A stretch of 46,645 nt of DNA, taken from positions 1-46,645 of the IMG/VR virus record IMGVR_UViG_3300033406_000405; one strand, written 5' to 3'. Position numbers and translations under genes: made by a program. Positions 407 to 34,513 of this stretch are shown here, one piece after another. Within the stretch, counting starts at the first letter, position 1; each line of letters starts with the position of its first letter. The notes under the pieces are model-generated. The model saw only the letters and a list, made by a program, of their open reading frames with translations. It ran no database searches and had not been told where the DNA came from. This stretch comes from a virus (lineage: Duplodnaviria; Caudoviricetes).

Positions 407-482
407 CTACAAGTAAGTGATCTTACTTGTAGATTGACTTGTAGACGGCTTGTAGATGACTTGTAGATTATAATCTACAAGT
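407..482. repeat. Phased CTTGTAGA array with two palindromes (candidate oriT, parC or iteron site)
   Basis: CTTGTAGA at 426, 438, 449 and 460 (spacing 12/11/11). Inverted repeat CTACAAGTAAG-tgat-CTTACTTGTAG at 407-432. Perfect 24-bp palindrome ACTTGTAGATTA-TAATCTACAAGT at 459-482. Very AT-rich flank at about 340-405. Confidence 0.9.
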
Positions 483-573: not shown

Positions 574-753
574 TTATTTAGTTGTTAGCCATTGAGCAAT
601 ATAGGTCACCCCCGACATGGCTGCACTCCATTTTAGTATCCGTCCAAAACTATCCGGCACAATAAAAACAAATAGTAGATAAATAACAAGCGTCACAAAT
701 ATTTCAAGGAAAACCGTTCCTCCACCACTTAAAAATTGTTTTATGGTTTCCAT
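574..753 (-). CDS. Small membrane protein (59 aa, hydrophobic hairpin)
   Basis: ATG lies 1 nt after the upstream stop (TAA-T-ATG). Hydrophobic VFLEIFVTLVIYLLFVFIV, then PDSFGRILK and a second apolar segment. Confidence 0.7.
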   Translation of the reverse strand: METIKQFLSGGGTVFLEIFVTLVIYLLFVFIVPDSFGRILKWSAAMSGVTYIAQWLTTK

Positions 754-754
754 A

Positions 755-997
755 TTATTTGCCAATACCAAAAACGGCAAGAATAGCTACCAAAGCGGAC
801 AACACAACAGATGCCAAAGACACTACACTACCAGTCATCCCCACCGCGTCAGCGAGTTCTGCATACCATCCCTTCTTGCTGGCTGTCAGTAACGCTTTTA
901 GCAACGCCACCACCAAACCGGTTATACCTATTCCGATGCACATGAAAGCAGGCGTTCCCGGCTTGATAAACTGCCAAACAAATTCTGAGTAGGACAT
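755..997 (-). CDS. Two-TM membrane protein resembling SpoIIIAC/AD family
   Basis: GGAGGAG RBS at 1006-1012. GLVVALLKALLTASKKGWYAELADAVG...ILAVF aligns without gaps to B. subtilis SpoIIIAC as recalled from memory. Confidence 0.6.
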   Translation of the reverse strand: MSYSEFVWQFIKPGTPAFMCIGIGITGLVVALLKALLTASKKGWYAELADAVGMTGSVVSLASVVLSALVAILAVFGIGK

Positions 998-1584
998 TTT
1001 TTTATCTCCTCCATTGCTTTAATTTGAAATTCAAGTTTGGAATTTACCTTTGGAGGTTTTTCGCTAACCACCAATATTGGTGGAAATCTCTCTGTATATT
1101 TAGTCCACCACTGCCCCACGTATCCGTCGATATTGAACCATTTTTCGTACTTTTCCACCTTATCGAATTTATTAAAACCCCTGTCGTACTCGATAAAAAC
1201 AAACCTATGTTTATTGGTCACAGTATTGTAAATACCCATTAACCCGTCCGGCCGTAATGCCCCATAGTTAACTTCATAATGAAATGAATAGGCCTTTTCC
1301 CAGCTCCGTAAATTAGCTAATAGCCATACTCGCACCCAGTTTACACCAAGCCGGTGTTCAATCTGCCCAGGCTTTTTCTCTGCGTAATAAATATACGGTT
1401 CTCCTATGCTGTCTCGTGATTTTTTAACTTTCTTCAATTCTGCCAGCCGTTGCATTCGCTTTTGTGCCATTTTCATCGACGGAAAAAACATCTGAGCTAA
1501 TTGGTATATGTCTAATACTCCCCATTCAGCCAGAACCTCTTGTATAAGCCTATCGCGGTAGTAGCCTTTTTGGCGATTGTTCAT
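928..1584 (-). CDS. Replication-relaxation (Replic_Relax / MOB_C-type) protein
   Basis: N-terminal wHTH (RDRLIQEVLAEWGVLDIYQLAQMFF...AQKRMQRL), IEHRLGVNWV, RPDG...FIEYDRG...KVEKY nuclease-like motifs, FPPILVV. Confidence 0.85.
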   Translation of the reverse strand: MNNRQKGYYRDRLIQEVLAEWGVLDIYQLAQMFFPSMKMAQKRMQRLAELKKVKKSRDSIGEPYIYYAEKKPGQIEHRLGVNWVRVWLLANLRSWEKAYSFHYEVNYGALRPDGLMGIYNTVTNKHRFVFIEYDRGFNKFDKVEKYEKWFNIDGYVGQWWTKYTERFPPILVVSEKPPKVNSKLEFQIKAMEEIKKCPTQNLFGSLSSRERLLSCASE

Positions 1585-2650
1585 TTTTCCATATCAACCC
1601 CTGCTTGCCGGAAAGTAAAGCCCTGGCATCCGATACCGGCAGATACGGCACTTGAACCTCTAACTGTCGTTCCCACTGATAAATTGCCCTGCCCTTAACC
1701 TCTGCTAACATAGCCGCAGCATCATTGTCTAAGAGCATTCGGGAGTTTACCGCGTCGCGCATACGGAATACCAGACTAGCATTTATTAGTGCGCGTGATG
1801 AAGTCCACCCTGGCCACATATCGCTTGAAGGCCGTTGCGTGCTAAGTATTGCCGCGAATCCTGCCGCCCGGCCCAGCCTTAATGCCCGGTTAATTAGCGT
1901 TTGGCAGACTTCGTCTTGCATTTCTGCTAGTTCGTCGATCACCAATAGCATAAAGGGCATGTGGCCTACATACTCCTGGATTTTTACACATCCGGCTTTT
2001 TCGAGAACATCAAGCCGCTTATCAATTTCCTTATTTATAGCTGTTAGCACATCTCTCGCCTGTGGAATGTCGGTTACAACCAAAGCATGCTTCTTCAAGT
2101 ATGTAAACTCCAGGCGCTTCATATCGACGATTACGGCATAGATTTCACGGGTCAGTAATAGATTGCAGACCAATACATGAATTGAGTTTGATTTACCCCA
2201 CCCCGGCATTCCCGCCACCATCAAAAACGGGCTGTCTGCCAAATCACGGATTACTGGGCCTGTGGCCGATTGACCGAAATAAGCTGGCAAATAGGCCCCT
2301 TTTAAATCCGTCATTTCAAATTTCAATACCGTGGGAATCGGCTCGCTGAGTACCGTTAACACAACGGCTTTCCCCCTTTTTTCAATTTCTACGCAGCCTG
2401 AAACGACATCCCCAAAGTAGTGCTTTTTGCTCTCCAAATCCCGGTAAGACACCCCGGGCGGCAGATGGAATACAAAATGGTGTTGGCTCTTATTCTTGTT
2501 GTGTGCTATCACGATAGGATGCGGCTCCTTTGGCCACAATGCTTCTAATGTATCCAAAACACCTGCCTGTATTTCATTTCCCTTTCTGTGCCGCCATGCC
2601 CGCTGAACTGCACTAACGACCGGGGTTAATATGCTGTCATCTTTTTTCAT
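1550..2650 (-). CDS. FtsK/SpoIIIE-family ATPase without TM segments or gamma domain
   Basis: Walker A GMPGWGKS, IVDMK, Walker B LLVIDELAE, LGRAAG, STQRPS, KGRAIY. Confidence 0.92.
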   Translation of the reverse strand: MKKDDSILTPVVSAVQRAWRHRKGNEIQAGVLDTLEALWPKEPHPIVIAHNKNKSQHHFVFHLPPGVSYRDLESKKHYFGDVVSGCVEIEKRGKAVVLTVLSEPIPTVLKFEMTDLKGAYLPAYFGQSATGPVIRDLADSPFLMVAGMPGWGKSNSIHVLVCNLLLTREIYAVIVDMKRLEFTYLKKHALVVTDIPQARDVLTAINKEIDKRLDVLEKAGCVKIQEYVGHMPFMLLVIDELAEMQDEVCQTLINRALRLGRAAGFAAILSTQRPSSDMWPGWTSSRALINASLVFRMRDAVNSRMLLDNDAAAMLAEVKGRAIYQWERQLEVQVPYLPVSDARALLSGKQGLIWKNEQSPKRLLPR

Positions 2651-2659
2651 AAAAACCCC

Positions 2660-2875
2660 TCACATAAATTGGCTAAAATCCACGTTGTTACTGCTCACCG
2701 CAACCGCGCCTAATCTCGCGTCAATGAGCTTATTAATCAGGGCTTCAATATTGCCCGTGTCTAGTTCTGTTGCAAGTTTCTGCTTAACCCAACGAGAGAA
2801 ATTAGGCAATCCCTGACTGTATCGAAATAACTCTGCATCATCATCCGTAAAATACACTAGCCTTGTTTTTGCCAC
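2660..2875 (-). CDS. Small ribbon-helix-helix-like DNA-binding protein (ParR-like adaptor candidate)
   Basis: KTRLVYFT strand, then helices with NFSRWVKQKL. Overlaps the 3' end of the ParM gene. Confidence 0.65.
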   Translation of the reverse strand: MAKTRLVYFTDDDAELFRYSQGLPNFSRWVKQKLATELDTGNIEALINKLIDARLGAVAVSSNNVDFSQFM

Positions 2876-3663
2876 ATTCTCGCCCCCAGTGTGTGATAAC
2901 CAATTGCGTTTGCATATATCGGATTGCTTACTTGCCTTACTTTATAGTGCTTGCTTAAATAAGGTTCCAACGCCCCTGCACCACCTCCGGTAAGTAAGAC
3001 CGTCTCCCCGGAATATTTCACCCATAACTTACTGAGATCCGTGATAATTCGTCTACTAAACTGCTCTGCCTTATCATCCGCCTGTAATTCCATACAGCCA
3101 TAATCTAACGTACCGGACTGTAAGTCGCGGTACTTTTTGTTTTCGTCAATTGTTACTGTGTTGATCGTACGGCTGCCCGCGTCGATCACCCTGCATTTAC
3201 CGGGAGGAGACTCCGCAATGTAAGCCCCTGCCCCCTCAATAGTGATAATGATATCGGCTTCTGCAAGCCGGATATGTTTTTTCACTCCGTTGATTTCAAT
3301 GTCATAAATCCCGGCAAGTAACCGCCGCAACTCAGCTTTCGTTTCCGGCGTATGCTGGTCAACAGGCAGGCCCGTTACGAGTTGCACACGTTCCGTTTCA
3401 GCAAGCAGCGCAATGGCTGTCAGGGTAAGGATTTTGGTTTCTTCGTGGATTTTACTCTTAGTGGTCATATCCCGAGCGTATCGACTCTCATGCTGGGCAA
3501 GCTCTCCGACGAAATACCGTTGGCCGTTGATGCTGACCTCGTAATTACCTCCCTCTGTTATTTTTCGCTCTCGCCATTCGCCGACTACCGACGGATATGT
3601 CAGGCGGCGGCCATTAAATATGGCCTTAACGGCGTGGCGGCCACAATCTACAGATATAGCCAT
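2857..3663 (-). CDS. ParM/StbA-family actin-like ATPase
   Basis: Phosphate-1 ISVDCGRHAVK, LVTGLP, EGAGAY, phosphate-2 VIDAGSRTIN, LLTGGGA, YANAIG. GGGAGG RBS. Confidence 0.9.
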   Translation of the reverse strand: MAISVDCGRHAVKAIFNGRRLTYPSVVGEWRERKITEGGNYEVSINGQRYFVGELAQHESRYARDMTTKSKIHEETKILTLTAIALLAETERVQLVTGLPVDQHTPETKAELRRLLAGIYDIEINGVKKHIRLAEADIIITIEGAGAYIAESPPGKCRVIDAGSRTINTVTIDENKKYRDLQSGTLDYGCMELQADDKAEQFSRRIITDLSKLWVKYSGETVLLTGGGAGALEPYLSKHYKVRQVSNPIYANAIGYHTLGARMWQKQG

Positions 3664-3691: not shown

Positions 3692-3720
3692 GCAGTATGT
3701 TGTTTGCTATATAGATATGC
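3692..3720 (-). promoter_or_regulatory. Putative sporulation sigma (sigmaE-like) promoter of the ParM operon
   Basis: GCATATC-N14-CATACTGC upstream of the parM RBS resembles the sigmaE pattern (K)CATAtt-N14-CATAcaaT. No good sigmaA promoter is seen on this strand. Confidence 0.35.
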
Positions 3721-3779
3721 TGGATGTGTATAATTTGATGCCTGTATTGGTTAAAATAGAAATAAAAAAATCCCCCCCT

Positions 3780-3977
3780 TTAATCTGGAGGATCAATTAA
3801 TTCTTCAATATGACATTGAAGTTTTCGCGAAATGTTCCATGCCCATTCTAAAGAAGGTTGAATTTCTTGTCTCTCCCACCTAGAATACTGATTTTTATTA
3901 ACCCCCAAAAACATTGCAAACTCTGTCTGGTTCATCTCCCTCTTGTGTCGCCAAGACTTTAAATTATTTTTCAGCAT
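3780..3977 (-). CDS. XRE-family helix-turn-helix regulator (65 aa)
   Basis: NNLKSWRHKREMNQTEFAMFLGVNKNQYSRWERQEIQPSLEWAWNISRKL. Confidence 0.9.
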   Translation of the reverse strand: MLKNNLKSWRHKREMNQTEFAMFLGVNKNQYSRWERQEIQPSLEWAWNISRKLQCHIEELIDPPD

Positions 3978-4064: not shown

Positions 4065-4553
4065 ATGGTAACCCGATATAAGCTTTTAGTATTTTCTCTA
4101 TTATTTGCAATATTGTTTTCTCAGTATGGATATTGTTCTGGTAGATACTATCAACTGTATTCTAATTCTTATGGGACATTTTCTTTAGATACTTTTACTT
4201 TAGAAGTTAATAGTAATACTACTGGCATCTATTTTAATGCATGGATCATGATACAATACACCGAAGAAGGAAGATATCAGGTAATTGCGGATCGGCTAAA
4301 GTTAGGCCTTCCGGTTTTTGGGTATCAAAATCTTAAATCTTCTCTATGGAACTACACATTTGCAACAAACGGAACACGAAATTTTTTTAAAAATATGCAG
4401 TGTATAGAATATGATACTTACGATAATATTCTATGGAATTATACGTATCCATCTTCTAAACCGTTTCAAGAAGCAATTCCAGGTTCAACAGTAGAATCTG
4501 ATATATACGGAATATCACTTTATTGCTCATCAAATGGAATTCAACCCAAATAA
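4065..4553 (+). CDS. Secreted protein, paralog 1 (surface-adhesin-E-like)
   Basis: AAGGAG RBS, N-terminal signal peptide, C-terminal FQEAIPGSTVE motif. Low GC. Confidence 0.65.
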   Translation: MVTRYKLLVFSLLFAILFSQYGYCSGRYYQLYSNSYGTFSLDTFTLEVNSNTTGIYFNAWIMIQYTEEGRYQVIADRLKLGLPVFGYQNLKSSLWNYTFATNGTRNFFKNMQCIEYDTYDNILWNYTYPSSKPFQEAIPGSTVESDIYGISLYCSSNGIQPK

Positions 4554-4601
4554 ATGGTCAGTCATACGATGTTGTAAATATATTTAATGGAGGGGTTAAC
4601 T

Positions 4602-5096
4602 GTGAAAAGGCTTATTACGTTCTTGCGATTATTTGTTTTTACAATCTTATTAGGAGCACTATTTACACAACAAGGTTATTGCTCTAGCAGATATTATCAT
4701 TTAGAATCTAATGAATATGGAATTTTCTCTTTGGATACGATAACTTTTCACGTTACTAAGGATAATAATTGGATTTACTTTGATATTTGGATTAAAGATG
4801 AATATACTGAAAAAGGGATAGAAGATTATAAAAAAAGCAGACAATCGAAAGGACTTCCTACAAAAGGTTACGAAAAAACAAGTTATTCTTTGACTCACGA
4901 AATATTTGCTACAAATCCATCGCGTAAAATTTTGGCACATGTGGGTTATGCTGTTTATGACAAATATGGTACTAGTATAGAAAATACCACATTGTCCTCA
5001 CTTAAGTATGAAGAAGTTATTCCGGGTTCAGTAGGAGAAGCTCTCTGTAATGAGGTAATAAATTATTGCATAGCAAATAACATATCTCCACAGTAA
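4602..5096 (+). CDS. Secreted protein, paralog 2 (surface-adhesin-E-like)
   Basis: GTG at 4602 after GGAGGGG. Signal peptide. GYCSSRYYHLESNEYGIFSLDT and YEEVIPGSVGE match paralog 1. Confidence 0.65.
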   Translation: MKRLITFLRLFVFTILLGALFTQQGYCSSRYYHLESNEYGIFSLDTITFHVTKDNNWIYFDIWIKDEYTEKGIEDYKKSRQSKGLPTKGYEKTSYSLTHEIFATNPSRKILAHVGYAVYDKYGTSIENTTLSSLKYEEVIPGSVGEALCNEVINYCIANNISPQ

Positions 5097-5178: not shown

Positions 5179-5409
5179 TTACTTCTCCACAAACCACTTA
5201 CCTTCATCGTCAAAAAAATAAACCTGCTTACCCATGATCTTACAGGTGTAGCGTATACCCAGGCCGCCGCCTTTAAGTGAGGCGGCTTTTCTTACATCAG
5301 TAAGTCGGTCTATCTCGAACACGCGTCCATCCTTCCACTTTAAACTTAAGGGGCGAACTGAGCCGTCGACATTATGTCGAGCCGTAACTTCCACGAATAC
5401 TTTTCCCAT
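5179..5409 (-). CDS. Small beta-rich protein associated with DinB cassettes
   Basis: GSVRPLSLKWKDGRVFEIDR...KGGGLGIRYTCKI...KWFVE. ATG at 5409 after AGGTG, directly after dinB. Confidence 0.75.
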   Translation of the reverse strand: MGKVFVEVTARHNVDGSVRPLSLKWKDGRVFEIDRLTDVRKAASLKGGGLGIRYTCKIMGKQVYFFDDEGKWFVEK

Positions 5410-5414
5410 ACTTA

Positions 5415-6650
5415 TCACCTAAAAAAGGATACTGGATGAATTACATTATCGTCTTTCGGACTGAATCCACTTAACTGCGAATCTTTCATCATAATGCACC
5501 GTTGTATACAATATGATCCAAAACGTTCACGGAGCTTATCAATGGTTCGTTCAATAGGTTCCTTATCTACTTTGTTCCAGAATAGATCAAGTTGAATATT
5601 CCCTTCTGCCGTTACTAAATCGGCACCCCGAACACCCAGGCTGCGGATCGGTTTATCCCATGTATAATTAGTCTCAAATAGCTCTAACGCTTTTGCTGCT
5701 ATATCATCCGAAATAAATGTTGGCACCGGAATTTTCCCCGGCCTCTCAAACGATGATAATTCGTTATTCCGCACACTTATTGATACAGTGGTGCATTTCA
5801 GCCCGTGTTTTCGAAGTCGCGCTGCCACACTTTCAGCCAACACATAAATAATAATTTTCACATCTGCTATATTCACTAAATCTCTGGCAGTAGTTGTGCT
5901 GTTGCCAACAGACTTTACAATACTCTCCTCACCAACCAGGCGCACCGGTGCTGAATCAAGGCCATTAGCGAACTGCCACAAGGTTTCTCCCCAAACACCT
6001 AGAAGCAGCTTTAAATCCCGTACATTACGGTTTGCCAAATCACCTATAGTAAATATCGCCCGATTCTCTAACTTCCTTTTAGTTGCACGACCAACATACA
6101 ATAAATCACCTACCGGCAACGGCCATACAGTTTGCCGGTAGTTTTCCTCCGTAATAACTGTAGTCGCATCCGGTTTCTTCATGTCGCTACCGAGTTTAGC
6201 AAATATTTTATTCCAGGAAACACCTACCGACGCAGTGACCCCCACTTCCTCCCGCATACGTTTACGAATAGTATCGGCGATAGCGGGACCATCACCTGCA
6301 GTCAGCTTTGAACAAGAAACATCGCACCAAACCTCGTCAATTCCAAATGCCTCGATTTGGTCAGTGTAATCAGCATATATCTCCCTGGCCATTCTGGAAA
6401 ACCGCAGATACTTTTTGAAGTCCGGCGGTACAACAATCAGCCCCGGGCATTTTTGTTTGGCCTGCCATATGACATCGCCGGTTTTAACCCCCATTTGCTT
6501 AGCATGGTAGTTCTTCGCCAAGACAATTCCGTGACGCGCATCTACATCACCGCCAACAGCTACCGGGAAATCGCGAATCTCTGGTCGATAAAGGCACTCC
6601 ACGCTTGCATAAAAATTGTTTAAGTCTACGTGCAGGATTGTACGATTCAT
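5415..6650 (-). CDS. dinB: Y-family DNA polymerase (Pol IV/DinB-like)
   Basis: ILHVDLNNFYASVE, FGIDEVWCD, SVGVSWNKIFAKLGSDMKKPD, clamp-binding QLDLF. Confidence 0.93.
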   Translation of the reverse strand: MNRTILHVDLNNFYASVECLYRPEIRDFPVAVGGDVDARHGIVLAKNYHAKQMGVKTGDVIWQAKQKCPGLIVVPPDFKKYLRFSRMAREIYADYTDQIEAFGIDEVWCDVSCSKLTAGDGPAIADTIRKRMREEVGVTASVGVSWNKIFAKLGSDMKKPDATTVITEENYRQTVWPLPVGDLLYVGRATKRKLENRAIFTIGDLANRNVRDLKLLLGVWGETLWQFANGLDSAPVRLVGEESIVKSVGNSTTTARDLVNIADVKIIIYVLAESVAARLRKHGLKCTTVSISVRNNELSSFERPGKIPVPTFISDDIAAKALELFETNYTWDKPIRSLGVRGADLVTAEGNIQLDLFWNKVDKEPIERTIDKLRERFGSYCIQRCIMMKDSQLSGFSPKDDNVIHPVSFFR

Positions 6651-7517: not shown

Positions 7518-9212
7518 TTATACCTTAAACTTTCTTACAACATTCTGCATTTCCTCTGCCATTTTAGCCAATGCCTGACTTGAAGAAGCGATTTCTTCTA
7601 TAGAGGCAGACTGTTCTTCAGAGGCGGCTGATACTGTCTGTGTCTGACTTGCCGTATTCTTACTAACTGAAACAATCCGTTGCACGGATGATACAATTTG
7701 TTGACTACCGCCAGCCATTTGCTGAACATTGGCCGAAATGTCAGCTACCTGAGAGGAAACCGTATTAATAAGTTCTACTATCTCTCCAAATTTCTTTCCG
7801 GCACTATTTACTACTTCCGTTCCTGTTTTTACATCCTGCGCACCAGTATTCATGGCCACAACTGCTTTTTCCGTATCAGATCTAATCTCACCGATAAGTA
7901 TGGCTATTTTTTGAGTCGATTCCTGTGACTGTTCGGCTAATTTTCGCACTTCTTCGGCTACCACGGCAAAACCTCGTCCCTGCTCTCCTGCCCTGGCTGC
8001 TTCGATGGCCGCGTTAAGGGCCAACAAATTAGTTTGTCCGGCAATACTGGAAATAACTTCAACAATTTGACCGATTTCCTGCGAACGTTCATTTAGTTTG
8101 CTAACTGCATCAGCAGCTTCCAACGTAGATTGTTCAATTGACGCCATTTGATTAACGGCCTGCCCAACAATCTCACTGCCAGATTTAGCCGATTTAAAAG
8201 TTGTATCTGTTACTCCTGCCACAGTATTAGCATTGGCTGCGGCTTGCTGCATTCCCGCTGACATTTCCTGAACCACAGTTGCCGCTTCATCAGCAGCACT
8301 CATTTGAGCATCAGCCCCCCGGGCCACTTCTGTTATAGATCCCGCCACCTGATTAGTGGCTTGAGCAGACTGTTCCGTGCTGGCCGAAAGCTGTTCCGCA
8401 GAAGCTGCCAATGTTTCCGATGAAGTAACAATCTTCTTAAGAACATTGCTAATGCTAGTAATCATTTTTGCCATGGCTCTCGCTAGCTCGCCAGTTTCGT
8501 CTTTGGCACGAAGGAATTTTTCCTCAACCTTAAAACTAAAATCACCGTCCGCCAGTTTATTTAAATCCATAATAACAAGTTTAAGAGGCCCGGTAACAGA
8601 TCTCGTTATCATTATAGCGGTAGCTATTCCTAGTATTATCGCTACCATAGTCAATACCAGTAGGGTGATTTGAGCCTTATGCCCCATTGTCTGAGCATCA
8701 TCAAACCCATCATTCATTTGCTTTTCCCTAAACACAAGATATTCATCAATTTTATTTCGAATATCAGAGGCGGCTGGTGCCATTTCACTCCCCATAACAC
8801 TGACTACTTCGTCCATTTTACCAGCATTTTTTAGAGGAACAGTTTTTTCCATTGCTATCTTATCATATTTTTCATTTAAAGCTTTAATATCCCGAGCAAA
8901 CTGTTTTCCTTTCTCCGTAAGAGCTCTATCATTTAGTTCCTGTAAAATTGTGTCATCTTCTTTATAAAGCTTTTTATAGTCATCAATAAACGATTCCTTA
9001 CCTGTAATGCAAAATCCCCGAATAGCCGCCACTTTTAAAGCACTATGCTGTGCTAAAATATAAGTTTTTTGATACAGGACCAGGTTAATCTCCTGCAAAT
9101 TATCACTCGTTGTATTCATATTCCCAATTAAAAATACCCCAATGCCACAAGATATCGCCGTAATCGCCAGAACAATAATAAAGCCCATCAATATTTTTGC
9201 ACCGATCTTCAT
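7518..9212 (-). CDS. Methyl-accepting chemotaxis protein (2 TM, four-helix sensor, HAMP, signalling domain)
   Basis: [58 protein letters not shown] at 9212 after GGGGAGG. Confidence 0.95.
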
Positions 9213-9256
9213 TATGCATCCTCCCCTGCCGTATAATAGCACCTCTCTCATCTCAC

Positions 9257-19903: not shown

Positions 19904-22900
19904 TTATTTCTTAGATTCATCGTATGAATTAATATATTCATACTCTCCTCTCTGGCCTTTAGATACATTTTGCAGGCTCCGTTCTAAACCGGTTTTACTC
20001 TTCTTTTGGATTTCCGTACTGACCCGTTTACCGGAAATACGGCGTTCCGCTAACTTGTTCCTATTTTCATCGGATGGATTATTAATATAGTTGTCGATAG
20101 CCTTAGCATCTTGGGCTTGTTTTTCTTTTTCCTCCGTGCTAATGATGTTGCGTAGATCAGAGGATACCGCTTCATCTGCCAGCCTAAAGCCCAATCCTTT
20201 TACTAAACGTTCATACATAGTATCGTATACGTTATTCGTCCGGCCGCGTGCGGTTTTGGATTCTCCGGCAACCGCCTGCGCTATATTGCCAACGCCGGGC
20301 GAAACGGCTTTTAAGGTTTCATTGATATTACCCCGCCCTACTTCTCTTATCACTGAAAGTAATGTGCTGACGGCTGGTCCAAATGCGTCCTTTAGTTCCG
20401 TTGGCATTATATCCCCTAGACCGGTTCGATTAGAAATATCTACGCTGCCGGTATAATCCGTTGAGAGAATCCCGTAGTTTATGGCTTTAATAAGGGTTTG
20501 TCTATCTTTGTCTTCACCGGCCCATGTAAACATTGCTTTTTTCATTTTTTCTTCAAGGTCAACGCCAAGGATTCCACTCAATAATTCTAACAACGTATTA
20601 GCAAACGGCGGTCCCGCAAACAACCCGGAAAGGAGTAGCAGCGGTATCCATAACCGGAGGTTTTGTCCAAGGGTGCCTTCATGGAGTAAATCGCCAATGA
20701 GTTCCACTTCTTTGATACCGAACTTCTTAAATTGTAGTAATAGTTGAGCTACTGGGCCGCCCCGTCTAAATAGGTTAGGGGCATCCGCCACGCTATAATC
20801 GAAATTGGCTTGAGTATTAATGGACTTCGCATACTGTAAGGCTTCTTCTTTACTTTTTCCTTGGCTAATGGCTTTATGGTACGCTCCCAAGATAGCCGTC
20901 CGGCGCATCAACATGTCTAAGTAATGAAAAAGAATCGTTGAGTTTTTAAATAGCTTGCCCACGTTTCCGGCGCGAGAATAGCTGCCACTTTCCATGGTCA
21001 AATTGGTATCAATTCCGGCTTTCCGTAAAATGATACGGTCTGCTAAATCAGGCCGTATGGCCCTTGCCAACCCTTTTGAAGCCACCCCATAATCATTAAG
21101 GGCGGCACCCACATTGATAAACTGAGCTACTTGAAGTAAGGCCGAAGAAACGTTCAACATCCCCAGTTTCAACACAGCTATTGTGTTAGTCAGCCCGGAG
21201 ACAAGTTGCAAAGCCGGTCGATCACCAAAATAAGCACCAAGGTATTTTTTGAACACAGGGTTTAGGTTCAAAGCATCGTTTAATACTTTTTCTATGTTGG
21301 TAGGCACACCGTTCACATCATTGATATAGTCTTTCACATAGGAAGCTACTCCTTCATGGCTGGCGTTATCCCAACGGCCAAACAGCCGTTCAAAGGTGCT
21401 AATCGACTTGGATTTAAACGGGTCCATAGCCACATACCGGCTTACCATGTTGAAGTGGTGAGATAGTACCCAATCCAGGTTTTGCTCGTACCCTGCTGCC
21501 CCTTTCCTTTGCAGGAAGTTCCCCATAAAGCGGTGACGGCCTTTCATACCTACTTTGCCGTCCATAAACTGCTTGGCATCAGAAAGGCTAATTTGAAGGT
21601 CTTCGGCAATTTTCTTCTGCATCTTGAAATACTGATAATCCCCGACAACTGCCGCCTGCATCTGTTCACCCTCAAAGCGGAATTGCTTGGGTTGTATTAC
21701 AATTTCCATATCCGGGTTTTCTTTAGCTATCTTATTGGCCTTTTGCGTAGCTTCCTGCATAGTAGTACCGGAATCCAGCATGGTATAGGTAGATTTCCCG
21801 GTTTCCTCATCGATTTCTTTTTGCATGATAAACCAGTCATGGAAGAAATGCGGAATGTAGCCTTTTAATTTGTTGATCGGAGGTGTTTGGCTCCTGTAAT
21901 GAACCTCGTAGAAGCCATCGCCGCGGGTTAAGCCGCTGCTTTCCGGCATGGCATATTCCGTAACCCCATAGGGAGTTGCACTAAGTACCTCAACATTCGG
22001 ATTTTGCCGCATTTCATCCAGGTCTTTTTCCGTCATAACGGCAGTGTCTTCCCGAATTTTCGGCGTTTTGTACGTGACTAAGGTGTAACCACCAACCGCT
22101 GGCGTTTCTTTCAGGATGGTAACAAATTTATTGCTTTTCAGCGCTTCCAATTGATGAGCGTCCAAGTTTTCGGATTTTATTTCTATTCCTTGCCGGATCT
22201 CATTCGTCAAATTATAGGCCTTATCCATGGCCACCCGTACCATACGGTATGCCTTTATAACATTATCCGAATACCCGGCTTGGCGTAAATCCTCATTGGT
22301 GTAATCCTTGCCGTCAATATCTCCTTGTAAAAGAATTTGATACAGAGTGGCCTTGCCGTTTTTGTCCAGCAGTTTTTCCCATTTTTCTTTACGGTGGCGA
22401 AATTCATTTCGTAAGGTTTCCTGCTTTTCCATGGCCATGGTAGCCAAACGGAAAAACGGTTTAATTTTCGGATGCTTCTGAGCGATTTCATTCACCGAAT
22501 TAAGGGCATTAGAAAAGAAACCAATCTTATTCGTGGTTGGTTTCTTTCGAATAGTAACATTTTTACTTGGCTTAATGCCAAAACGCTGCGCTAAGTTTTG
22601 TACAGCATTTTGATTGACTTTATTAATGTCCGAGCTATCAACGGATTCCTTAGTGTTATTCTCTTCACTATTACCTTCTTCCCTATTTTCGGTGGCAGCT
22701 TCTTTAGCAAACATGACATTACCGCACTCATTGGCAGCCATATCCTTAACCTGTTTCCAAACATCCACCATCTTGCTTTTTACCTTGCTCCAAGCCTCGC
22801 CCAACAACTCTCGCATCTTCTTTACCCAATCTCCGGACTTGGTATAACCATCGACTACTAACCGTTTACCGAGTTCCACTAGCCCCGGTAAGGCATCTTG

Positions 22901-25900
22901 TAATCTATTGGCCGCTTTTCTGATTTCTTCCGCCAGATCAACATTATCAAATTCCCCGAAAGTAGGGTCGAAGCCAACATTTAGTTTTGCTCGATTATTT
23001 GTGCTTCCATTACTATTCTCTACAGGTTCTTCTTTAATCGCCGGTTCAAAAACATGCGGTTCGTAAATGGGTACGCCGCTTTCATCGGTAGCCTGTGTAT
23101 AAGGAATAGAGCCTTTATCAGTTATAACATAATAATTATCTTGGCCCCATTTATGACCTTCAACAGTGGTAGGTTTTCCGTCCACATAGATTTCCGTACC
23201 TACCGGAGCGCCTTGCCGTAGCCAGCTTGGAGCCGGAACCGGATTATTTTGCAAATCCTTCTCCAAATCGTCCAGCATCTTACGTTTCTTTACTAAGGTA
23301 TCGGCCTGAGCAAACGGTTGCTTTTGTACTTCCTTTAATCTTTCTATACTGGCCTTGGCTTCGTCAATGCCGCTACCTAGTGCTTCCGCTCTCTTATTCA
23401 GTCCACGCAATTTCCCTTCGACGGAAGCCATGGAAGGTTCAATAGAATATTCCCCATTCCCACTGAGAAGAAAATTGGTATTGAGCCAACCCTTTTGCAT
23501 GAGAATAGTAAAACCATGGACTTTTCCTAATTCCACGCCGTCATTTGTCGCTGCAGTCCGCTTTATAGCATCCTCTAATGCTGCATCCGTATCTTTTCGA
23601 TTATCATACCGCTTGCCATCAATCACTGCACTAAAAGGTTTTTCTTTGGAGGCTATATACTGTTTATAATCAAAATCCAATTCTTTTATTAAGGTGGTAT
23701 TGCGCTTAATCTTTTCCTGGAGTTCGCGTACTTTTCCGGCAGCATCGGCAATGCCATAGGTATGCATCCGTTCCCGCTTTTCCAGTTTTGCAATGTCGGT
23801 TTTGAGTTTCTCCCGCATTTGGGTCCGGGGATCACCAGTGGCTTCGGACAAAGAAGCGGTAATATCATTCACTTCATCGCCATCATCCATGCTTACCGCG
23901 TCCCCTTCTACTACGCGGGTATTTTCGTCTGCCTTTAGAAATTTCTTTATGAAATTATCTTTTACCGCCAATACCTGCCAGCGGCGGCCATCGAGCTTTT
24001 CTGTAATGTATCGATATTCGAGTACCGTATTCCACTTATTCCCCTGCCGCCAGCCACGGCCATTTCGCTGTTCCAGTTCTCCGGGCATCCAAGGAGCATC
24101 TAAATGGTGCATCGCCCGAAGGTTAGTTTGCATATTTACCCCAACGCCCAATGTTGCGGTATTACCGATTACCACCCGGATTTTGCTCTCATTCATGGCA
24201 TCGGCTATTTCTTTACGCTTTTCTTTACTTACCGAACCATCAACAACCGCAATTTGTTCTCTGGGAATACCGGCCTCCACCATTTTATTCACCATGTCTT
24301 TAACCATGTTGAATACCGGGATTTTAGTCTTTGTTACGGTTCCATCCTTAGCGGTTTTAGACCGTACTGACTCATCATTATAACCCCGTTCCATGAAGAT
24401 TACCTGCGTAGCTTGTGGGTGTTCCTTATAATGAGTTATGACATTTCGAATACAACAGTTTTCTTTTAAGTCCGAGTTATCCGGCAAATGCCGGTTAACT
24501 AAGCGCGGGTCCATACCGGCGTTCGCGGCTGCTGTCTCTACTAAAACAGGAGAAGCCGGATCACCCGACTTCATAATTTCAAACCGTTCTTTTTTCGATG
24601 CATTTTTGAATTTCTTCGCCAGTTTGACCAGTTCACCCAGTATTCCCTTCTGCGCTTCGGTCATCGGCCCTATATCATTAATGATTTTCTTATAGGGGCG
24701 GCCAACAGGGTTTTCGGTTCTCCCATTTACTAACGCTTCCCGATCTGCTTCGGTTAAATCCTTAGAGGAAAGCGTTTTGCCGTCCGGAGTTTCCCTGGGA
24801 CGAAATTCCGGCATTTGGTCTGCAAAAACAATGTCCATGTACTGGCCAACTACCCGGCGTAGTTCCGGCACATTTACAAAGGCAGCCAGCCGGGTGATGG
24901 GTTCATATTCTCCGGTGGCGGTAAGTTCCACATCATTCACGGAATCCGCAAAGGTGGAAAACCACGTATCCCAATCTTTAATACCATCGCGCTCCATCTG
25001 ATCATCCATAACATAGCGCATCTGATGATAGATTTCCGTTAAGGTGTTGGTAATCGGTGTCCCGGTAAACGTATGAACTCCGCGCCCATTGTTCATTTTC
25101 TTAACGTAATCCGTTAAAAGGCGCAGCGCCACAGACCGGTCAGATGTACCTTTGTTTAAGCCACGCATAGTCATTTTCGTAGTGATCGGAGGCTTTTTAA
25201 ACTCATGAGCCTCATCGACCAAAACCAGGTCTATTCCCAGTTCTTCAAAGGGTATAGCCCCTTCTTTAGACGCACGCATGGCCATTTCATCAATTTTTTT
25301 AATAATCCGGTTCCGTTCCTTAACCAACTCTTTTGCCGTAACGCTTCGTACCTTACTCATGGCCTCAGGATCATCCATATCCTTAATATCTAAATTCGCA
25401 TTATCCTCTGCCGCTGCGTCCAGGGCTTCTTGTTCCAGTTGAGCAATTTCCTCGGCGGACAGTTCGTCCAACGTTTCGCGGGTTAATGCAAACTTATTGA
25501 TTAGAGAATGCGGCACAACAATAGCGTCCCAATCGTCATTGGCTATTCGCCGGGCAGCTACATCAAAATCCTTCGGCTTTTCAATATACAGCACCTTAGC
25601 CCCTGGGTACATTTGATTAATGTCTGCGGCAAGGGAAGCGCTATTTGCATTATGGGCAAAAATAAGGGGCTTTTTCGCAATTCCATACCGGCGCGACTCT
25701 ACGGCAATACCGCCAATGGTATAGGATTTCCCTGTACCAACCTCATGCGCATATATGCCGCGTCCATTGACTAAGCCTCGGTAAATGGCGTTTTGCTGAT
25801 GCTGGCGAAGATTAAACGGGCTATCCCCGCGCTTTAAAGCCATACCGGGGAATTCCATGAAGGAACCGTCAAAATGCGGACTGGCAACGGCATTCATGAC

Positions 25901-28900
25901 TTCGTTATAGTTATTCTCCAACCAGATTCGACGCTCTGCATCCTTCCACGCCCAGGTAGGGAATTCTTCTCGTATTTTCGTGATCTTATCATTGGCCTGC
26001 GTTGTCGCCTCTTCATCAATAACCGTTTTACCATCTTCATCCTTATAGGTGATTTTTACAGTACGGTTATTCATGGCCGCAGTTAGGAGCTTATCAAACT
26101 TATAATCAGAAACACCCCATTGTGTAGTAGCTTCCGGCCTGCTGTTAAGGGCTTTGTTTTCGAATCGTACACCCCAGGAACCACCACCAAAGCGAATCTT
26201 AATATCTGCTATTTCCTCGGGCTTTGTTACCCCCAGCATTTCAGCAATAAACTGCTGATAGTGTTCTGGTTTTACCCATGGAGCACCTAGTTTGGCCTCT
26301 ATTTGAAAATACGGTACTGTTTTAGGAATGACTTTTTGGAGTGCTTCAATGTTACGCTCCATCCCTTTTTGACCACCATCGAAAGCGTCCTGTGCTTCCC
26401 GGAGTTTCCGCCGGACATTCCCGGACAAATATACGTCCGATACTTCATAGTTTCCGGCTGGTGTCCGAAACACCGCCCCGGAACCTTCCAGTTCATGAAT
26501 GACTTCATCTTCGGACACATGGGCTGCTTTTGCGATCTTTACTATATCGATATCCATGCTTTCATTCCGGGCTATGATATACGCATCCCGAATGCTGGGA
26601 TTCGCAACAGTAACTTTGCCCCGAGTGGTTGGTTCCGTCAAAATCTTAGCGGGTTTACCTTCGTATTCCAAAGCGGCAAGAGAACCGTAGGCCGGATCAT
26701 TAACCCGGTTTAACATATTAAGCCCGTAAGAATCTGTTAGATTGCCGAATTGCTTAACGAACGACTTATATTGCTTATTTAATACCTTCCGTAGTTCTTC
26801 CGTATTCGGCGTACTATCCCGTTCCGCATCAATAAGCTGTCCGTAGGCTTTTCGCATTCCGACTAAGGCTTTGATCTGATTTTCACGGTTCAATGTCTCT
26901 TTTTCACTTTTCACCTTATACTTAGCTACTTCGTTTAAGGGAGCCAGATGTTCGCCGCTAACGACATAGAGATTGCCGTCATCATGACCGACAATACTTC
27001 CCTGTCGGTCTTTCGTATTATTGGTGAGATACTTTATTTCTTCTTTCGGCGTAAAAGGTACAAATCCGTCTTGAGGAACCCGGTCTGCAAGAGAGTTTAG
27101 TAATTCTAACAAGTTTGCCGGCCGATTTACAATCATACCCGGTCTTCCTGTTGTGGTTCCATGCCCAAAGTCAAGTTCTCCTAACACATGGTCTGGATGC
27201 GCTACATAGTATTCGTTGACTTGAAAGTCTTGTCCTGATGGAGATTTTACGTCGGCAAGATTGATCCATCCCTCATTAGAGGCTGATGTAGTAAGGGGTT
27301 CCTGCCGTTTTCGCAGGATAATGAGGTCAGTTACTACCTTCGTTCCCGCGTACTTTTCAAAGGCACCGGTAGGTAAGCGGAATGCGGCAACAAGCTCCCC
27401 TTTCTTCGCCATAGCTAGGCGAGTAGACTTCCCAATCTTGTCCATGGTTCCGGCACTAGTAATACCCATGATAATGCCGCCGGGACGCGTTTGATCTAAG
27501 GCTTTTAAAAAGAAATAGTCATGCAAAGAGGGACTCAGTTTGGCGTAACGCCTATCAACTGGTCCCTCTGCTGCAAACGGCCAATTACCAATAACTAAAT
27601 CATAAAAGTTATCTGCCGTTTTACTATCCTGATATCCTTTTATCTGTACATTGGCCTCTGGATATAAAATTTTTGTCATCCCGCCGGTGGTTTGGTCGAG
27701 TTCAATTCCGGTAAGCTCACTCTTTTCCATTAAGTCACGGGGCATAAGTCCAAAAAAGTTTCCAATCGCCACGGAAGGTTCTAATACCCGCCCTCCGGTA
27801 AAGCCCATGGCTCGCATGATGTTCCACATCGTCTGAACTGTTGGTGGATCGGTATAATGGGCATTGATAATAGATCGCTGGGCGCTCTCCCAGGCTTCTT
27901 TCCCCAGATGTTCACGGAGCCAAGCATCTTCTTTTTCCCACAAGGCTTTAGGTCTTGGCCGGTCCCATGAACCATTAAACAGTTCTTGCCCAAAAGAACC
28001 CCATCCGGTATAAGCCGCCATTGTGCTCAATTCTTCCGGGGTAGGTTCCCGCCCTTCTTCCGTGATGGATTGAAATGCCTCGATGGCACCTTTATTTTTT
28101 CCAAAGCGTAACTTTGGAGAACCACCAATCATATTCTCAGGATCCGCGATGAAATGATTTTGTCTTTGATTGTTTGGGACTAGGCCCGTTGCCTCGCTGC
28201 GTTCAGCATCTCGAATACTTCCTTCATTCCGCGTCCCATGCTGTTCGCTTCCAGTTCCTCCTCGACTCCCTCCTCCGGTTCCCTTAGCAGCCAGTCCCTC
28301 GCTGCTTCTGCTTTCGCGTCCGGTATTGGGAGTCCCGCCTTCATATATTTCGTCTGAGCTTCGTAATACATGTTCATCAGAACGTGAGCCATCCTTTCCA
28401 GGATTTTCAGTTTCTTCAGGCGTGCGTACATCTGGGGTCGATACGCTTCCCAATACTCGATCAGTTCCTTTTCGGCCCAGCTCCCGACTCCCCATTCCTT
28501 CTCGATTTCCCGACTCTTGCGTATGGTCCACTTCACTAGGTCTTTGTCCTCCATCGATAGCGGCGCTGCCATGGCTTTCTGCCCCCTTCTTAAATCCTGG
28601 CCATTCCGTTACACCGGCATGTACCGCTTCCGTTAAACCGGTGTATTGTTTACCTAAGTCCTGCTCAATTTTATTTTTCATTGCATCCAGGCTGGTTATA
28701 CCGTCCTGATACAGTATTCCGGCGTATTCAAACAAGGTATTGGCTACTTCATCATTATATTGTACGTCTTTCGGCCATTTATTTATGGCTTCCCATACAC
28801 TGGGCAAGAAAGGTTCTATTTTTTCCCCAACCGTATCCACCATCTGGTTTGACCATGCGCTAAACTCATTAACGCCCCGTTGTAAATGGATTGCACCGAC

Positions 28901-31900
28901 TTTAAAGGCGGCTGCCATAAGTTTTACATTAAAGACCGGATTCGCTGACAATTTATTAAGTTCGGCCTGCAGTTCTTTCATGGCTGTGGCCAATGCTTCA
29001 TCACTATCATCAATGAAGTGGAAAGCTTTTGGCTGTGCAGGCTTCTTCTGCATCTGTTTTGTTTGCGGTTTTTGCCCAGACAACTCTTTTAGCCTATTCT
29101 GTAAATACTCTCGGTTTTCTTGGCTACCATCAAAGCCGCCTGCTCCAACGACATTTTCTGCTTGCCTACGTTCGTCCATGTCAAAATCATTCTGAGATTT
29201 TGCAGCCGATATTTCTTCTTTTTGTAGTGCCTCCATGTCGTTCTCTTTTTGAGTACCGCTTTTCAATTCTTCAAGGTAGTGCTGCCCCTTTTCCGTAAGC
29301 ATCATTTTACCGCCGGGAGCAGATACCAATTTACTTGCAACTAAATCTTGTAATTCATCTACGTTATATCGATCCACAAACTGCCGGGGAGTAAGTTTAT
29401 TCACCGCAATATCTGAAAGCATAGTTTTATCTTGTTCACTGTTATCGTAAATGGGTTGGGGTGAAGTCGCTGTTTTTTCAGTAGGTTGAGAAGTGCGTTC
29501 CTCCGGCTGCTTTTGTTCCACCCCTGCAATTTCGTTGGCCGTTTTCACTGTTTTATCGGATTTCTTGGCATACCATACTTTCTTTGCGCGATTCCACCGG
29601 AAACCGTTCGTTTTTAACCGCTCACGGATTTCTTCACTTGGCTTACCGTCAAACTTAAGTTCTATACCATTTTTCTCAGTGTTTTCAATGATTTGAACAC
29701 CAGAAGATTTCTTTGCGTTAGCTATAGTAGCAGTTTCATTAACGGGTGATGTTGGCAATTGTTTCGGCTGTTCCGTTATATTAGTTTCCGTAGAAGGTTT
29801 TCCACCGCCAAAAATTGCATTAGCAATTGTCTTTACTTGGTCTAATAACGGTTGAGGGTTTATGCCATATACCGTATTCGGCCATTTTTTTGCTGTTTCA
29901 ATGGCTAACTCTGGATCACCGACAAAAACCTCTGAAAGCTTCCCTTGCAAATATAAAGCATGTGACAACACACCATATGTTCTTCGAATAATGTCCTTTC
30001 TATCGGAGTCATTGACAACGTTTCCCCAGGTTTGAGCCGAATTGAAATACTTCTGAGCTTCTTTTACCGCATCCTCTACTGCGCTTCGAGACGCGGGGCC
30101 AGTATCAGGGATACGATTCATTACGGTAGAGAAGTTATTATTATCAATCGATTTGCCGATAGAATCCCGTTCATCATATAACTTATTTAATTTTGCTAAT
30201 TCTTCAGCCGTTAATTTCGTAGAAGTACTCTCTGATGTATCGTCGATGGGTGCGTTAAATACTTCAGCCTGACCGTATTTTTTGATTAGTTCATCTTCAT
30301 AGTCATCTATTTTTTTCTGTGCAGAATCATATTCCTCTTCCGTTACAGGATTTGCTGTATTCGCAGAATCTTGGTCCTGAATATTAGTCCGTGCTGTGTC
30401 CTTAGCCATATGGTTTTTCAACATTTCTTCATAAGGTATTACTAGATGTGCATATTGCATTGCCCCCATTTGGTCAAGGAATTGAACTAACTCTGAACTT
30501 ACAGCTTCTAATCCACTTCTATCACGATAATACGCATCTAACACTATCTGAGCTGTTTCACCATCGTCTGTAATCCGTCCATCAATCTTTTTATCTCTTC
30601 TTGCTTGTTTTAGGTAATTTACTAATGCTTGATAACGGCCTTGCATTCTTGTACGTAAATCAGTGACATATTTGCTTACTTGGTGATCGCCTAACAATAA
30701 ATCAATCATGTGCCTTATTTCATGTGAAAATGTTCCACTTGGTGCATTTTCACCTCTGCTTATTCTAGCACCATAATGACCACCTACAAGCGTACCAACA
30801 CCAACATCATCACGGGCTTTACCACGATTATTTCTCATATCTTCATCAGAAATTATTTCACCGCGCAAAACGCCCTTCAACTGTGGATTAAGTCTATTCA
30901 ACTCACTTACTCGCCATAAATCATATTCTTTTCTGGACATTTGCCATGGTTCTTTTGTGGTATTTACTAGTTCCTGATTACCTTCACTTAGTGTTGAGCG
31001 GTTTCCTGATCCTGTTCCTTTCAGCACTGCGCTCGTCGCGCCAACTTCTTCATTATTTCCACCATTCGTGGCCTGACCGTTAGATAACCCCTCTGTTCCG
31101 GTTCCCAACCCGTTTTCTTCGAATAGGTTTTGTCCTCTGACACCTTCGGTCAACTCCTTTGCCGATTCTAAGGTTTCGCTTATCGTAGGTTGTTTTGCCG
31201 CAAATAACGTATTCTGTTTTGGGTTTCCCGCTTCATTTACACTATCAACGTATGTATTCAATAATTCAATTATCCGTCGCGGGCGTTGCTTATTATCATC
31301 AAACAATTTTAACAAGGCTTTGGCTTCCGGCGACAACCCTTCCCCAAATAGCCCTTGTTCTTGTAAGTATACGCTGACGGATTTTCCTTCATCCCGCAAA
31401 GCGGACAATTGTTTAACCGCTTCTGTAATATTCGGAGTAATATCCAGCGGAAACAGTTCGCCGCGTTCAATTTTCTCCTTCATTTGGGCCATTCGCGGGG
31501 CTACTGCCAACAAAGCATTGGATATTTTTTTTACATTATTATCCAACGTTTCAGCCAATCTTGCAAGTAAATAATTATCCCCGTAAGCCTTGGCAAACAG
31601 TGCATTTTTCAGGCGTTGAATTCCCTGCTGACTAATCTTTCCGTCACTATCCATTAGGGCATTCATTTCATTTGGCGTAGCAATATCACCCAAAGCAGAT
31701 TGCACAAAGCCCCGGTTAGCGGCGGTCATTAGGTCTCCAGCTTCATTGGCAGAAAACAAGGATAATGTATTAGCCGAAAGGCGATTCGCATCAACAGTAG
31801 CCTGTTCGGATGCACCCATCACTGCCCCGCCTTCTGTAGAGGTAATGATTTTTTCTAGTGGGACATCGGCCATACGCTGCCGGACTAATACCGGATTCTG

Positions 31901-34501: not shown

Positions 34502-34513
34502 TAAGTCCACCTC

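What the first reader, a model, noticed from the sequence alone, without database searches (positions are those of the whole stretch)
755..997. Phage-encoded SpoIIIAC look-alike
GLVVALLKALLTASKKGWYAELADAVGMTGSVVSLASVVLSALVAILAVF aligns without gaps to GIVVAFLHTILDQMGKKEYAQWVTLLGFIYILFMVATIVDDLFKKIKAVF. That reference is B. subtilis SpoIIIAC recalled from memory and must be verified. About 16/50 positions are identical, including the K-x-x-YA loop and the terminal AVF. The next gene (574-753: TM, PDS, FGRILK, TM) loosely recalls the N-terminal hairpin of SpoIIIAF. An orphan SpoIIIA-like subunit beside a relaxase is unexpected, and could be an adaptor or a dominant-negative sporulation modulator.
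Basis: partly seen in the sequence, partly recalled or inferred. Interest (0 to 1): 0.8.

Follow-up and report, generated by a model that had tools for sequence, protein, structure and literature searches.

The report
Phage spore-stage DNA-pump membrane subunit
A phage of a likely spore-forming bacterium carries a tiny membrane-protein gene, likely a distant relative of the host's spore-channel subunits, in one unit with a DNA-pump gene behind a copy of the host spore-channel promoter motif, so it likely anchors the phage's own pump during spore formation rather than acting alone on the host.

Summary
The ORF is real (755-997, minus strand, 80 aa, strong RBS, two predicted membrane helices). 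It is not a SpoIIIAC family member: PF06686 and TIGR02848 give no hit. A distant kinship to SpoIIIA-type hairpins holds up. A host SpoIIIAC profile scores it above 766 of 766 unrelated hairpin segments, level with SpoIIIAD. Its 35-sequence family aligns without gaps to SpoIIIAC (HH 53-75%), and better to SpoIIIAE's first hairpin (89%). The SpoIIIAF idea for 574-753 is not supported.

It is not an orphan. It sits in an Alp-RHH-FtsK-Replic_Relax-hairpin unit. 36 of 46 FtsK+relaxase loci carry the hairpin, against 0 of 24 FtsK loci without relaxase, and these FtsKs lack membrane segments. The unit lies behind the window's only CATATCTAT, the -10 motif upstream of spoIIIA in 5 of 5 likely host relatives.

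Best reading, untested: it is the membrane anchor of a mother-cell-expressed phage DNA pump, probably serving entry into the spore. The scan noted similar cassettes in three other genomes.

The parts
755..997 (-). The finding: 80-aa helix plus two-TM hairpin, distant SpoIIIAC/AD/AE-type; likely membrane subunit of the cassette
   Evidence: (helices 3-11, 16-39, 43-76; pLDDT 69.6)
574..753 (-). 59-aa second membrane hairpin, in the slot where relatives carry a paralogous hairpin; its own kinship is not shown; not SpoIIIAF by the tests run
   Evidence: (3% to the other second hairpins)
928..1584 (-). Replic_Relax family protein (HTH plus PD-(D/E)xK fold); likely the DNA-recognition partner
   Evidence: PF13814 E 8e-12, above cut-off; catalytic motif present here but absent in 5 of the 14 aligned proteins
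1550..2650 (-). FtsK/SpoIIIE-type ATPase, 366 aa, no N-terminal membrane segment, ends about 220 aa after Walker A
   Evidence: PF01580 E 6e-13; hydropathy and length
2660..2875 (-). 71-aa small protein, probably a ribbon-helix-helix adaptor (label by inspection, no named family hit)
2857..3663 (-). Actin-like ParM/Alp protein; present in only some related cassettes
   Evidence: PF17989 E 3e-28
3711..3741 (-). Predicted sigma-E-type promoter: GCATCAAA ... CATATCTAT, 47 nt before the alp start; same -10 motif as upstream of host spoIIIA
   Evidence: only CATATCTAT in the window; first of 279,666 scored sites
407..481 (.). Six CTTGTAG/CTACAAG repeats right behind the cassette; candidate binding site of the Relax protein (inferred)
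   Evidence: 6 of the 10 copies in the window; TGTAGAT-type repeats at the same place in L001 and L009
567..574 (+). GGACAAGT, one mismatch from the SpoIIID box, pointing back into the cassette
   Evidence: same orientation in 10 of 37 loci against 116 of 1562 controls
3780..3977 (-). XRE-type HTH gene upstream of the promoter; a similar gene often precedes related cassettes

Best explanation
The 80-aa protein is likely the membrane anchor of a phage-encoded DNA pump that is predicted to be switched on in the mother cell during spore formation. Shown: it is a hairpin gene in one unit with a membrane-less FtsK ATPase and a Replic_Relax protein; its family aligns to SpoIIIAC/AD/AE hairpins; the unit lies behind the host spoIIIA -10 motif and in front of a repeat cluster. 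Inferred: sigma-E transcribes the unit along with spoIIIA. The Relax HTH would bind the repeats and stand in for the missing DNA-reading tail of FtsK. The hairpin or hairpins would stand in for the missing membrane domain and place the motor in the engulfing membrane, at or beside the SpoIIIA-SpoIIQ complex. The motor would then tether or move non-integrated phage DNA out of the doomed mother cell into the forespore. Step odds: kinship 0.8; works with the cassette 0.7; mother-cell timing 0.6; DNA delivery into the forespore 0.35.
For: Kinship: an iterated profile seeded with the window clade, host loci barred from inclusion, ranks the SpoIIIAC of five host genomes at E 1e-4 to 7e-3 among 32,766 segments. 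HH probability is 74.5% over 54 gapless columns; 0 of 40 block shuffles and the reversed profile fall short. A host-only profile gives the window protein 10.5 bits, above 766 of 766 unrelated hairpins, with SpoIIIAD at 9.4-12.8. PF06686 is the commonest weak Pfam hit (4 of 35 and 4 of 20 members). The top three Atlas clusters carry PF06686 (14%, 82%, 14% of members; scores 0.83-0.85, a lead only). Linkage: 36 of 46 against 0 of 24. All relaxase-linked FtsK frames have N-part hydropathy under 1.6, except one cut fragment. Small hydrophobic genes sit beside FtsK in five Bacillus/Geobacillus phages, four of them with an annotated Relax-type gene behind FtsK. Timing. GGACAAGC with at most one mismatch lies upstream in 14 of 40 loci, 0 of 40 on the other strand, and 58 of 781 controls. 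Host range: 5 of 5 relaxase hits and 9 of 9 strong hairpin hits lie in the 71 of 301 Negativicutes genomes that hold spoIIIAC.
Against: No direct family hit. The family profile did not pick out host spoIIIAC in five whole genomes. The window protein is a divergent member (leave-clade-out E 0.07), and the 36 of 46 count is partly circular. Of the four hairpin hits not used in training, none sits in an intact cassette: one lies beside a broken FtsK, one is broken on a 2.6-kb contig, and two have no FtsK or relaxase in 10 kb. The promoter matrix was built after the match was seen and is weak family-wide (8 of 39 above the control 90th percentile, p 0.018). The window's own upstream SpoIIID-like box has 3 mismatches. 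The post-hoc box-plus-CATA pattern matched 1 of 11 held-out loci. In phage Fah the FtsK/SpoIIIE gene is a delayed gene of infection (PMC4113786, passage). Loci are related, so p-values are optimistic.
Confidence: 0.45

Rival explanations
1. The hairpin anchors the FtsK-Relax unit for upkeep of a plasmid-like prophage in growing cells (segregation or replication together with Alp and RHH), with no special link to sporulation.
For: Alp and a small adaptor-like gene share the unit; L009 carries ParA-like and Rep-like ORFs beside it (by inspection). PMC9658697 and PMC11526630 (passages) read such cassettes as plasmid replication and segregation genes. Fah FtsK is a delayed infection gene (PMC4113786, passage).
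Against: It leaves the spoIIIA-type promoter, the strand-specific SpoIIID-like boxes and the restriction to spoIIIAC-bearing genomes unexplained. Alp was found in 5 of 46 loci with 3.5-kb flanks.
Confidence: 0.2
2. The hairpin acts on the host: it enters the SpoIIIA-SpoIIQ complex as a decoy and blocks or delays spore maturation.
For: Kinship to three SpoIIIA subunits; predicted co-expression with spoIIIA; two relatives with no FtsK or relaxase within 10 kb, one looking intact (G028).
Against: Tight linkage and translational overlap with FtsK-Relax; median identity of 20% within the family and 18% to SpoIIIAC; hairpin distances follow FtsK distances (Mantel 0.46, 0 of 500 permutations, though shared descent alone gives this).
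Confidence: 0.15
3. The unit is a minimal cell-to-cell transfer device (coupling ATPase, relaxase, pilin-like subunit, wall hydrolase), like Streptomyces TraB or a mobilisable element.
For: Weak hit to plasmid TraB (E 1e-15, far under cut-off). Phage PS1 has a T4SS-pilin-like gene in the slot (E 5e-4, under cut-off). Many relatives have signal-peptide-like starts, and five have an M23-like peptidase fused to the second hairpin (by inspection).
Against: No profile match between the hairpin family and a 23-sequence pilin alignment (1%). The relaxase catalytic motif is lost in 5 of 14. No plasmid record matched the relaxase.
Confidence: 0.1
4. The likeness to SpoIIIAC is convergent: a generic two-helix anchor with a Gly/Lys loop.
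For: No direct hit; the narrow profile is no better than shuffles; HH probability under 90% throughout; the second-hairpin profile scores nearly as well reversed (21.2 against 24.9); Foldseek found nothing at E 0.001.
Against: (A5); no match to pilins or to the other SpoIIIAE, AB and AF segments used as natural decoys.
Confidence: 0.1

Closest known systems
SpoIIIAC (TIGR02848) and the SpoIIIAC/AD family (PF06686), small membrane subunits of the SpoIIIA-SpoIIQ complex
   Same: Size, helix-loop-helix layout, gapless 54-column alignment, Gly/Lys loop; predicted shared promoter type.
   Different: Under both cut-offs; 7-14 of 51 identities; extra N-terminal helix; no spoIIIA operon around it; partner is an FtsK ATPase, not SpoIIIAA; the family is far more divergent.
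SpoIIIAE, first membrane hairpin (PF09546)
   Same: Best profile match of the family (89%, 45 columns; beats 30 shuffles and reversal).
   Different: SpoIIIAE is a multi-pass protein of about 390 aa; the phage protein is one free hairpin.
FtsK/SpoIIIE + Replic_Relax cassettes of Bacillus and Geobacillus temperate phages (BtCS33, phi18-2, GBSV1, PK2; RBClin15, Novomoskovsk, Bolokhovo)
   Same: Same gene pair, membrane-less FtsK, adjacent small hydrophobic gene, nearby HTH gene and repeat cluster.
   Different: There the small gene lies upstream of FtsK and was not recovered by my profile, or is annotated TrbC/VirB2. The passages read give a plasmid-maintenance reading and mention no SpoIIIA kinship.
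SpoIIIE/FtsK chromosome translocase, and Streptomyces TraB-clt (both from background knowledge)
   Same: Same ATPase family; DNA moved across a membrane; repeats as a loading site (TraB).
   Different: Those carry membrane and DNA-reading domains in one chain; here they appear to be split off into hairpin and Relax genes (inferred).

Membership tests
SpoIIIAC (TIGR02848 / PF06686) | Score at or above the curated cut-off | tested here: not met
   No hit for the protein or its 10 close homologues; 4 of 35 family members hit weakly, best E 0.004
SpoIIIAC (TIGR02848 / PF06686) | Third gene of a spoIIIAA-AH operon | tested here: not met
   Neighbours are Alp, FtsK, Replic_Relax and HTH; PF06686 not found in the 46.6-kb record, which is 77% complete
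SpoIIIAC (TIGR02848 / PF06686) | About 65-aa two-helix membrane hairpin | tested here: met
   AlphaFold2 model, helices 16-39 and 43-76, pLDDT 69.6; membrane insertion itself is inferred from hydrophobicity
SpoIIIA-type hairpin superfamily (AC, AD repeats, AE hairpin 1) | Profile similarity above shuffled, reversed and unrelated hairpins | tested here: met
   probabilities 53-89%, twilight zone; a whole-genome search missed host AC
SpoIIIAC (TIGR02848 / PF06686) | Sigma-E-dependent mother-cell expression | tested here: inconclusive
   Motif match only; no transcript data
SpoIIIAC (TIGR02848 / PF06686) | Part of the SpoIIIA-SpoIIQ complex; complements a spoIIIAC mutant | not testable with these tools
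   Needs bench work
SpoIIIAF (for 574-753) | Match to the SpoIIIAF N-terminal hairpin | tested here: not met
   No Pfam or NCBIfam hit to it; HH 1%; rank 217 of 800; shallow 5-sequence profile
SpoIIIAF (for 574-753) | C-terminal soluble domain, about 200 aa in all (length recalled) | tested here: not met
   The ORF is 59 aa
VirB2/TrbC-type T4SS pilin (PF18895, PF04956) | Profile match to pilins | tested here: not met
   HH 1% against a 23-sequence alignment of PF18895 hits, several under cut-off; no solved-structure match
Phage FtsK + Replic_Relax cassette | Adjacent co-oriented PF01580 and PF13814 genes with a small membrane gene | tested here: met

The most novel reading that the evidence does not exclude
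Phages of spore-formers encode their own split SpoIIIE: a motor, a DNA-reading adaptor and SpoIIIA-derived membrane hairpins (in some relatives fused to a LytM/M23 domain, as SpoIIQ has). It is expressed with spoIIIA and pumps phage DNA from the mother cell into the forespore through or beside the SpoIIIA-SpoIIQ channel. The same hairpin unit would be the shared building block of SpoIIIAC, AD and AE.
Probability: 0.3. Interest if true: 0.9.

Novelty: new variant of a known kind. Interest (0 to 1): 0.62.

Why it matters
FtsK-type genes are very common in Bacillus phages: 356 phage records match this FtsK at E 0.001, 258 of them named Bacillus. The papers read offer only guesses at their role. 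A SpoIIIA-type membrane partner and a spoIIIA-type promoter give a specific, testable function: active entry of phage DNA into spores, a route so far proposed for segregation genes in general (PMC10294663, passage). It would also bear on what the SpoIIIA-SpoIIQ complex can carry, and would link SpoIIIAC, AD and AE through one repeated hairpin.

Full report
Setting. The window is a 46.6-kb provirus record, 77% complete by CheckV. It holds an amidase, a 4868-aa SLT/helicase protein, DinB and an MCP gene. Its DinB is 74-79% identical to those of Sporomusa species and related soil genomes, so the host is inferred to be a spore-forming Negativicute. DinB is mobile, so this is only a pointer.

The observation. 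The ORF at 755-997 (-) is 80 aa, has GGAGGAG 8 nt before its ATG and overlaps the upstream ORF by 70 nt. It is kept at 78-88% identity, with the same neighbours, in two independent loci, L001 and L009. AlphaFold2 on 11 sequences gives a short helix and two long helices (pLDDT 69.6). Against 31 fetched SpoIIIAC sequences the same register gives 7-14 of 51, median 9.

Direct tests of membership fail. There is no PF06686 or TIGR02848 hit for the protein or its 10 close homologues. The narrow profile against SpoIIIAC gives 6.9% and is matched by 8 of 40 block shuffles. The Atlas put three PF06686-bearing clusters on top at 0.83-0.85, which is a lead only.

Building the family. An alignment of nine cassette FtsKs fetched 62 viral and 80 genomic loci. 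I examined all 62 viral loci and the 15 genomic loci with long matches; the other 65 served only as background. An iterated profile was seeded with the window clade and run on 32,766 six-frame segments of 285 loci, with host spoIIIA loci barred from inclusion. It collected the small genes beside the relaxases and then ranked the SpoIIIAC of five host genomes at E 1e-4 to 7e-3. The 35-sequence family aligns to SpoIIIAC over 54 gapless columns at 74.5% (53% without context terms), and beats 40 of 40 block shuffles and its reversal. A profile made only from host SpoIIIAC scores the window protein 10.5 bits, above 766 of 766 unrelated hairpin-bearing segments and within the SpoIIIAD range of 9.4-12.8.

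Limits of the kinship. The first hairpin of SpoIIIAE matches better (89%) and the SpoIIIAD C-half as well (58%). Pilins and the other AE, AB and AF segments give 3% or less, as does the AD N-half. The window protein is a divergent member (leave-clade-out E 0.07, HH 65%). The family profile did not retrieve host spoIIIAC from five whole genomes. The fair label is 'SpoIIIA-type hairpin', not SpoIIIAC. The 59-aa neighbour does not match SpoIIIAF. In relatives its slot holds a paralogous hairpin (96% to the first family), but the window's own copy joins that group by position only (3%).

It is not an orphan. The unit reads Alp, small adaptor, FtsK, Replic_Relax, hairpin, second hairpin. Among 46 non-redundant FtsK+relaxase loci, 36 carry a family hairpin at E under 0.001; this count is partly circular, since the profile came from them. 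Of the other ten, two have weak hits, three have a hydrophobic hairpin upstream of FtsK, two end at the contig edge and three show none. None of 24 FtsK loci without a relaxase has one. The relaxase-linked FtsKs lack an N-terminal membrane segment and end 200-260 aa after Walker A. That they therefore lack the gamma domain is inferred from length and background knowledge. The relaxase catalytic motif is missing in 5 of 14 aligned proteins while the N-terminal part is kept, which suggests DNA binding matters more than cutting. PMC3424549 (passages) places PF13814 in the PD-(D/E)xK fold with an HTH. Six copies of a 7-bp repeat lie at 407-481, with similar repeats in L001 and L009. Other loci have different repeats, and the enrichment is modest (7 of 37 against 48 of 781).

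Timing. An earlier scan note (e1-6175237) suggested a mother-cell promoter, and I tested it here. Upstream of spoIIIAA, five of five Sporomusa-group genomes carry CATATCTAT about 13 nt behind a CATAAA-like element. In B. subtilis spoIIIA is sigma-E-driven and SpoIIID-repressed (PMC517825, passages). The window holds CATATCTAT once, at 3719-3711, 47 nt before alp. A matrix from the five host sites ranks it first of 279,666 scored sites, and 1 of 400 control windows scores as high. The matrix was built after I saw the match, and across the family it is weak (8 of 39; p 0.018). The SpoIIID box TAGGACAAGC (PMC11180830, passages) appears as GGACAAGC with at most one mismatch upstream of 14 of 40 cassettes, in 0 of 40 on the other strand, and in 58 of 781 controls. 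The window's own upstream copy has three mismatches; its relative L001 has one. A stricter post-hoc pattern matched only 1 of 11 held-out loci. SpoIIID is present in 5 of 5 genomes tested.

Host range. In 301 Negativicutes genomes, 71 hold spoIIIAC. All 5 with a relaxase hit and all 9 with a hairpin hit under 1e-5 are among them. Five of the nine supplied training sequences. Four weaker hits lie in long ORFs and look spurious. The four new strong hits are not intact cassettes: G049 lies beside a broken FtsK, G080 is broken on a short contig, and G120 and G028 have no FtsK or relaxase in 10 kb. G028 looks intact. These may be remnants, or a sign that a hairpin can act alone.

Mechanism. The simplest reading is a SpoIIIE split into three genes: motor, DNA reader and membrane anchor. 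Co-expression with spoIIIA and kinship to its subunits would put the anchor in the engulfing membrane. An integrated prophage reaches the spore with the chromosome, so the device would matter for excised, incoming or plasmid-state DNA, which fits the Alp gene. None of these steps was shown by binding or expression data. Against it, the Fah FtsK gene is a delayed infection gene (PMC4113786, passage), and PMC9658697 and PMC11526630 (passages) read such cassettes as plasmid-maintenance genes. A host decoy is less likely: family identity is 20%, against 56% among the host sequences, which were the best-scoring hits and so biased towards conservation.

What is known. The FtsK + Replic_Relax pair is annotated in many Bacillus phages. 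Phage use of segregation genes for entrapment in spores has been proposed (PMC10294663, passage; 'spoIIIA' does not occur in its main text). PMC2703783 (passages) shows SpoIIIAB, AD, AE, AF and AG in one complex and lists no homologue for AC or AD in the passage read. Searches listed nothing on phage SpoIIIAC-like genes; other papers were seen as listings only, and no supplements were opened. Three earlier notes of this scan describe similar cassettes in other genomes; they are unchecked AI notes and are not counted as support.

Verdict. A real gene and a distant SpoIIIA-type hairpin, not a SpoIIIAC. It is most likely a subunit of a widespread, uncharacterised phage cassette with signs of mother-cell expression. 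Novelty: new variant of a known kind. Interest 0.62.

Noticed in passing
L144:2050-2637, L145:5458-6042, L147:5471-6061, L158:5464-6054, L210:2649-3200: The second hairpin is fused to what looks like an M23/LytM peptidase domain (motifs by inspection, not scanned), a layout that recalls SpoIIQ.
   Followed up: no
L093:1690-2850 (host spoIIIAE, residues about 90-160): The first hairpin of SpoIIIAE matches the phage hairpin family at 89% but SpoIIIAC itself at only 7%, so the phage family may bridge AC/AD and AE.
   Followed up: partly
L113:1096-2046 (-): Relaxase and hairpin lie in one 316-aa open frame, with a signal-peptide-like stretch at the joint: a fusion, or an internal start.
   Followed up: no
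L114-L118 relaxase genes: Short Replic_Relax proteins that keep the N-terminal part but lack the nuclease motif.
   Followed up: partly
L372:4951-5235 (-): An intact-looking hairpin with no FtsK or relaxase in 10 kb, near a gene that looks like a cell-wall hydrolase (by inspection).
   Followed up: partly
L007:4353-4844 (phage PS1): A T4SS-pilin-like gene (PF18895, under cut-off) follows FtsK and Relax where other phages have the hairpin.
   Followed up: partly
window 19904-34510 (-): 4868-aa protein with SLT, ddrB-ParB and helicase domains.
   Followed up: no
window 7518-9251 (-), 37623-38273 (+), 43280-43885 (-): Host-type cargo among phage genes: an MCP chemoreceptor, a GGDEF diguanylate cyclase and DUF1847.
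   Followed up: no
window 4065-4553 and 4587-5096 (+): Two similar-looking low-GC genes with hydrophobic N-termini and no family hit, on the opposite strand.
   Followed up: no
window 5179-6650 (-): DinB/UmuC-type polymerase with a 79-aa partner; relatives of the partner recur next to several cassettes (L001, L165, L166, L170).
   Followed up: no
L002:2213-2480, L003:2320-2580: Bacillus phage cassettes carry their own short repeat clusters upstream of the small membrane gene.
   Followed up: no
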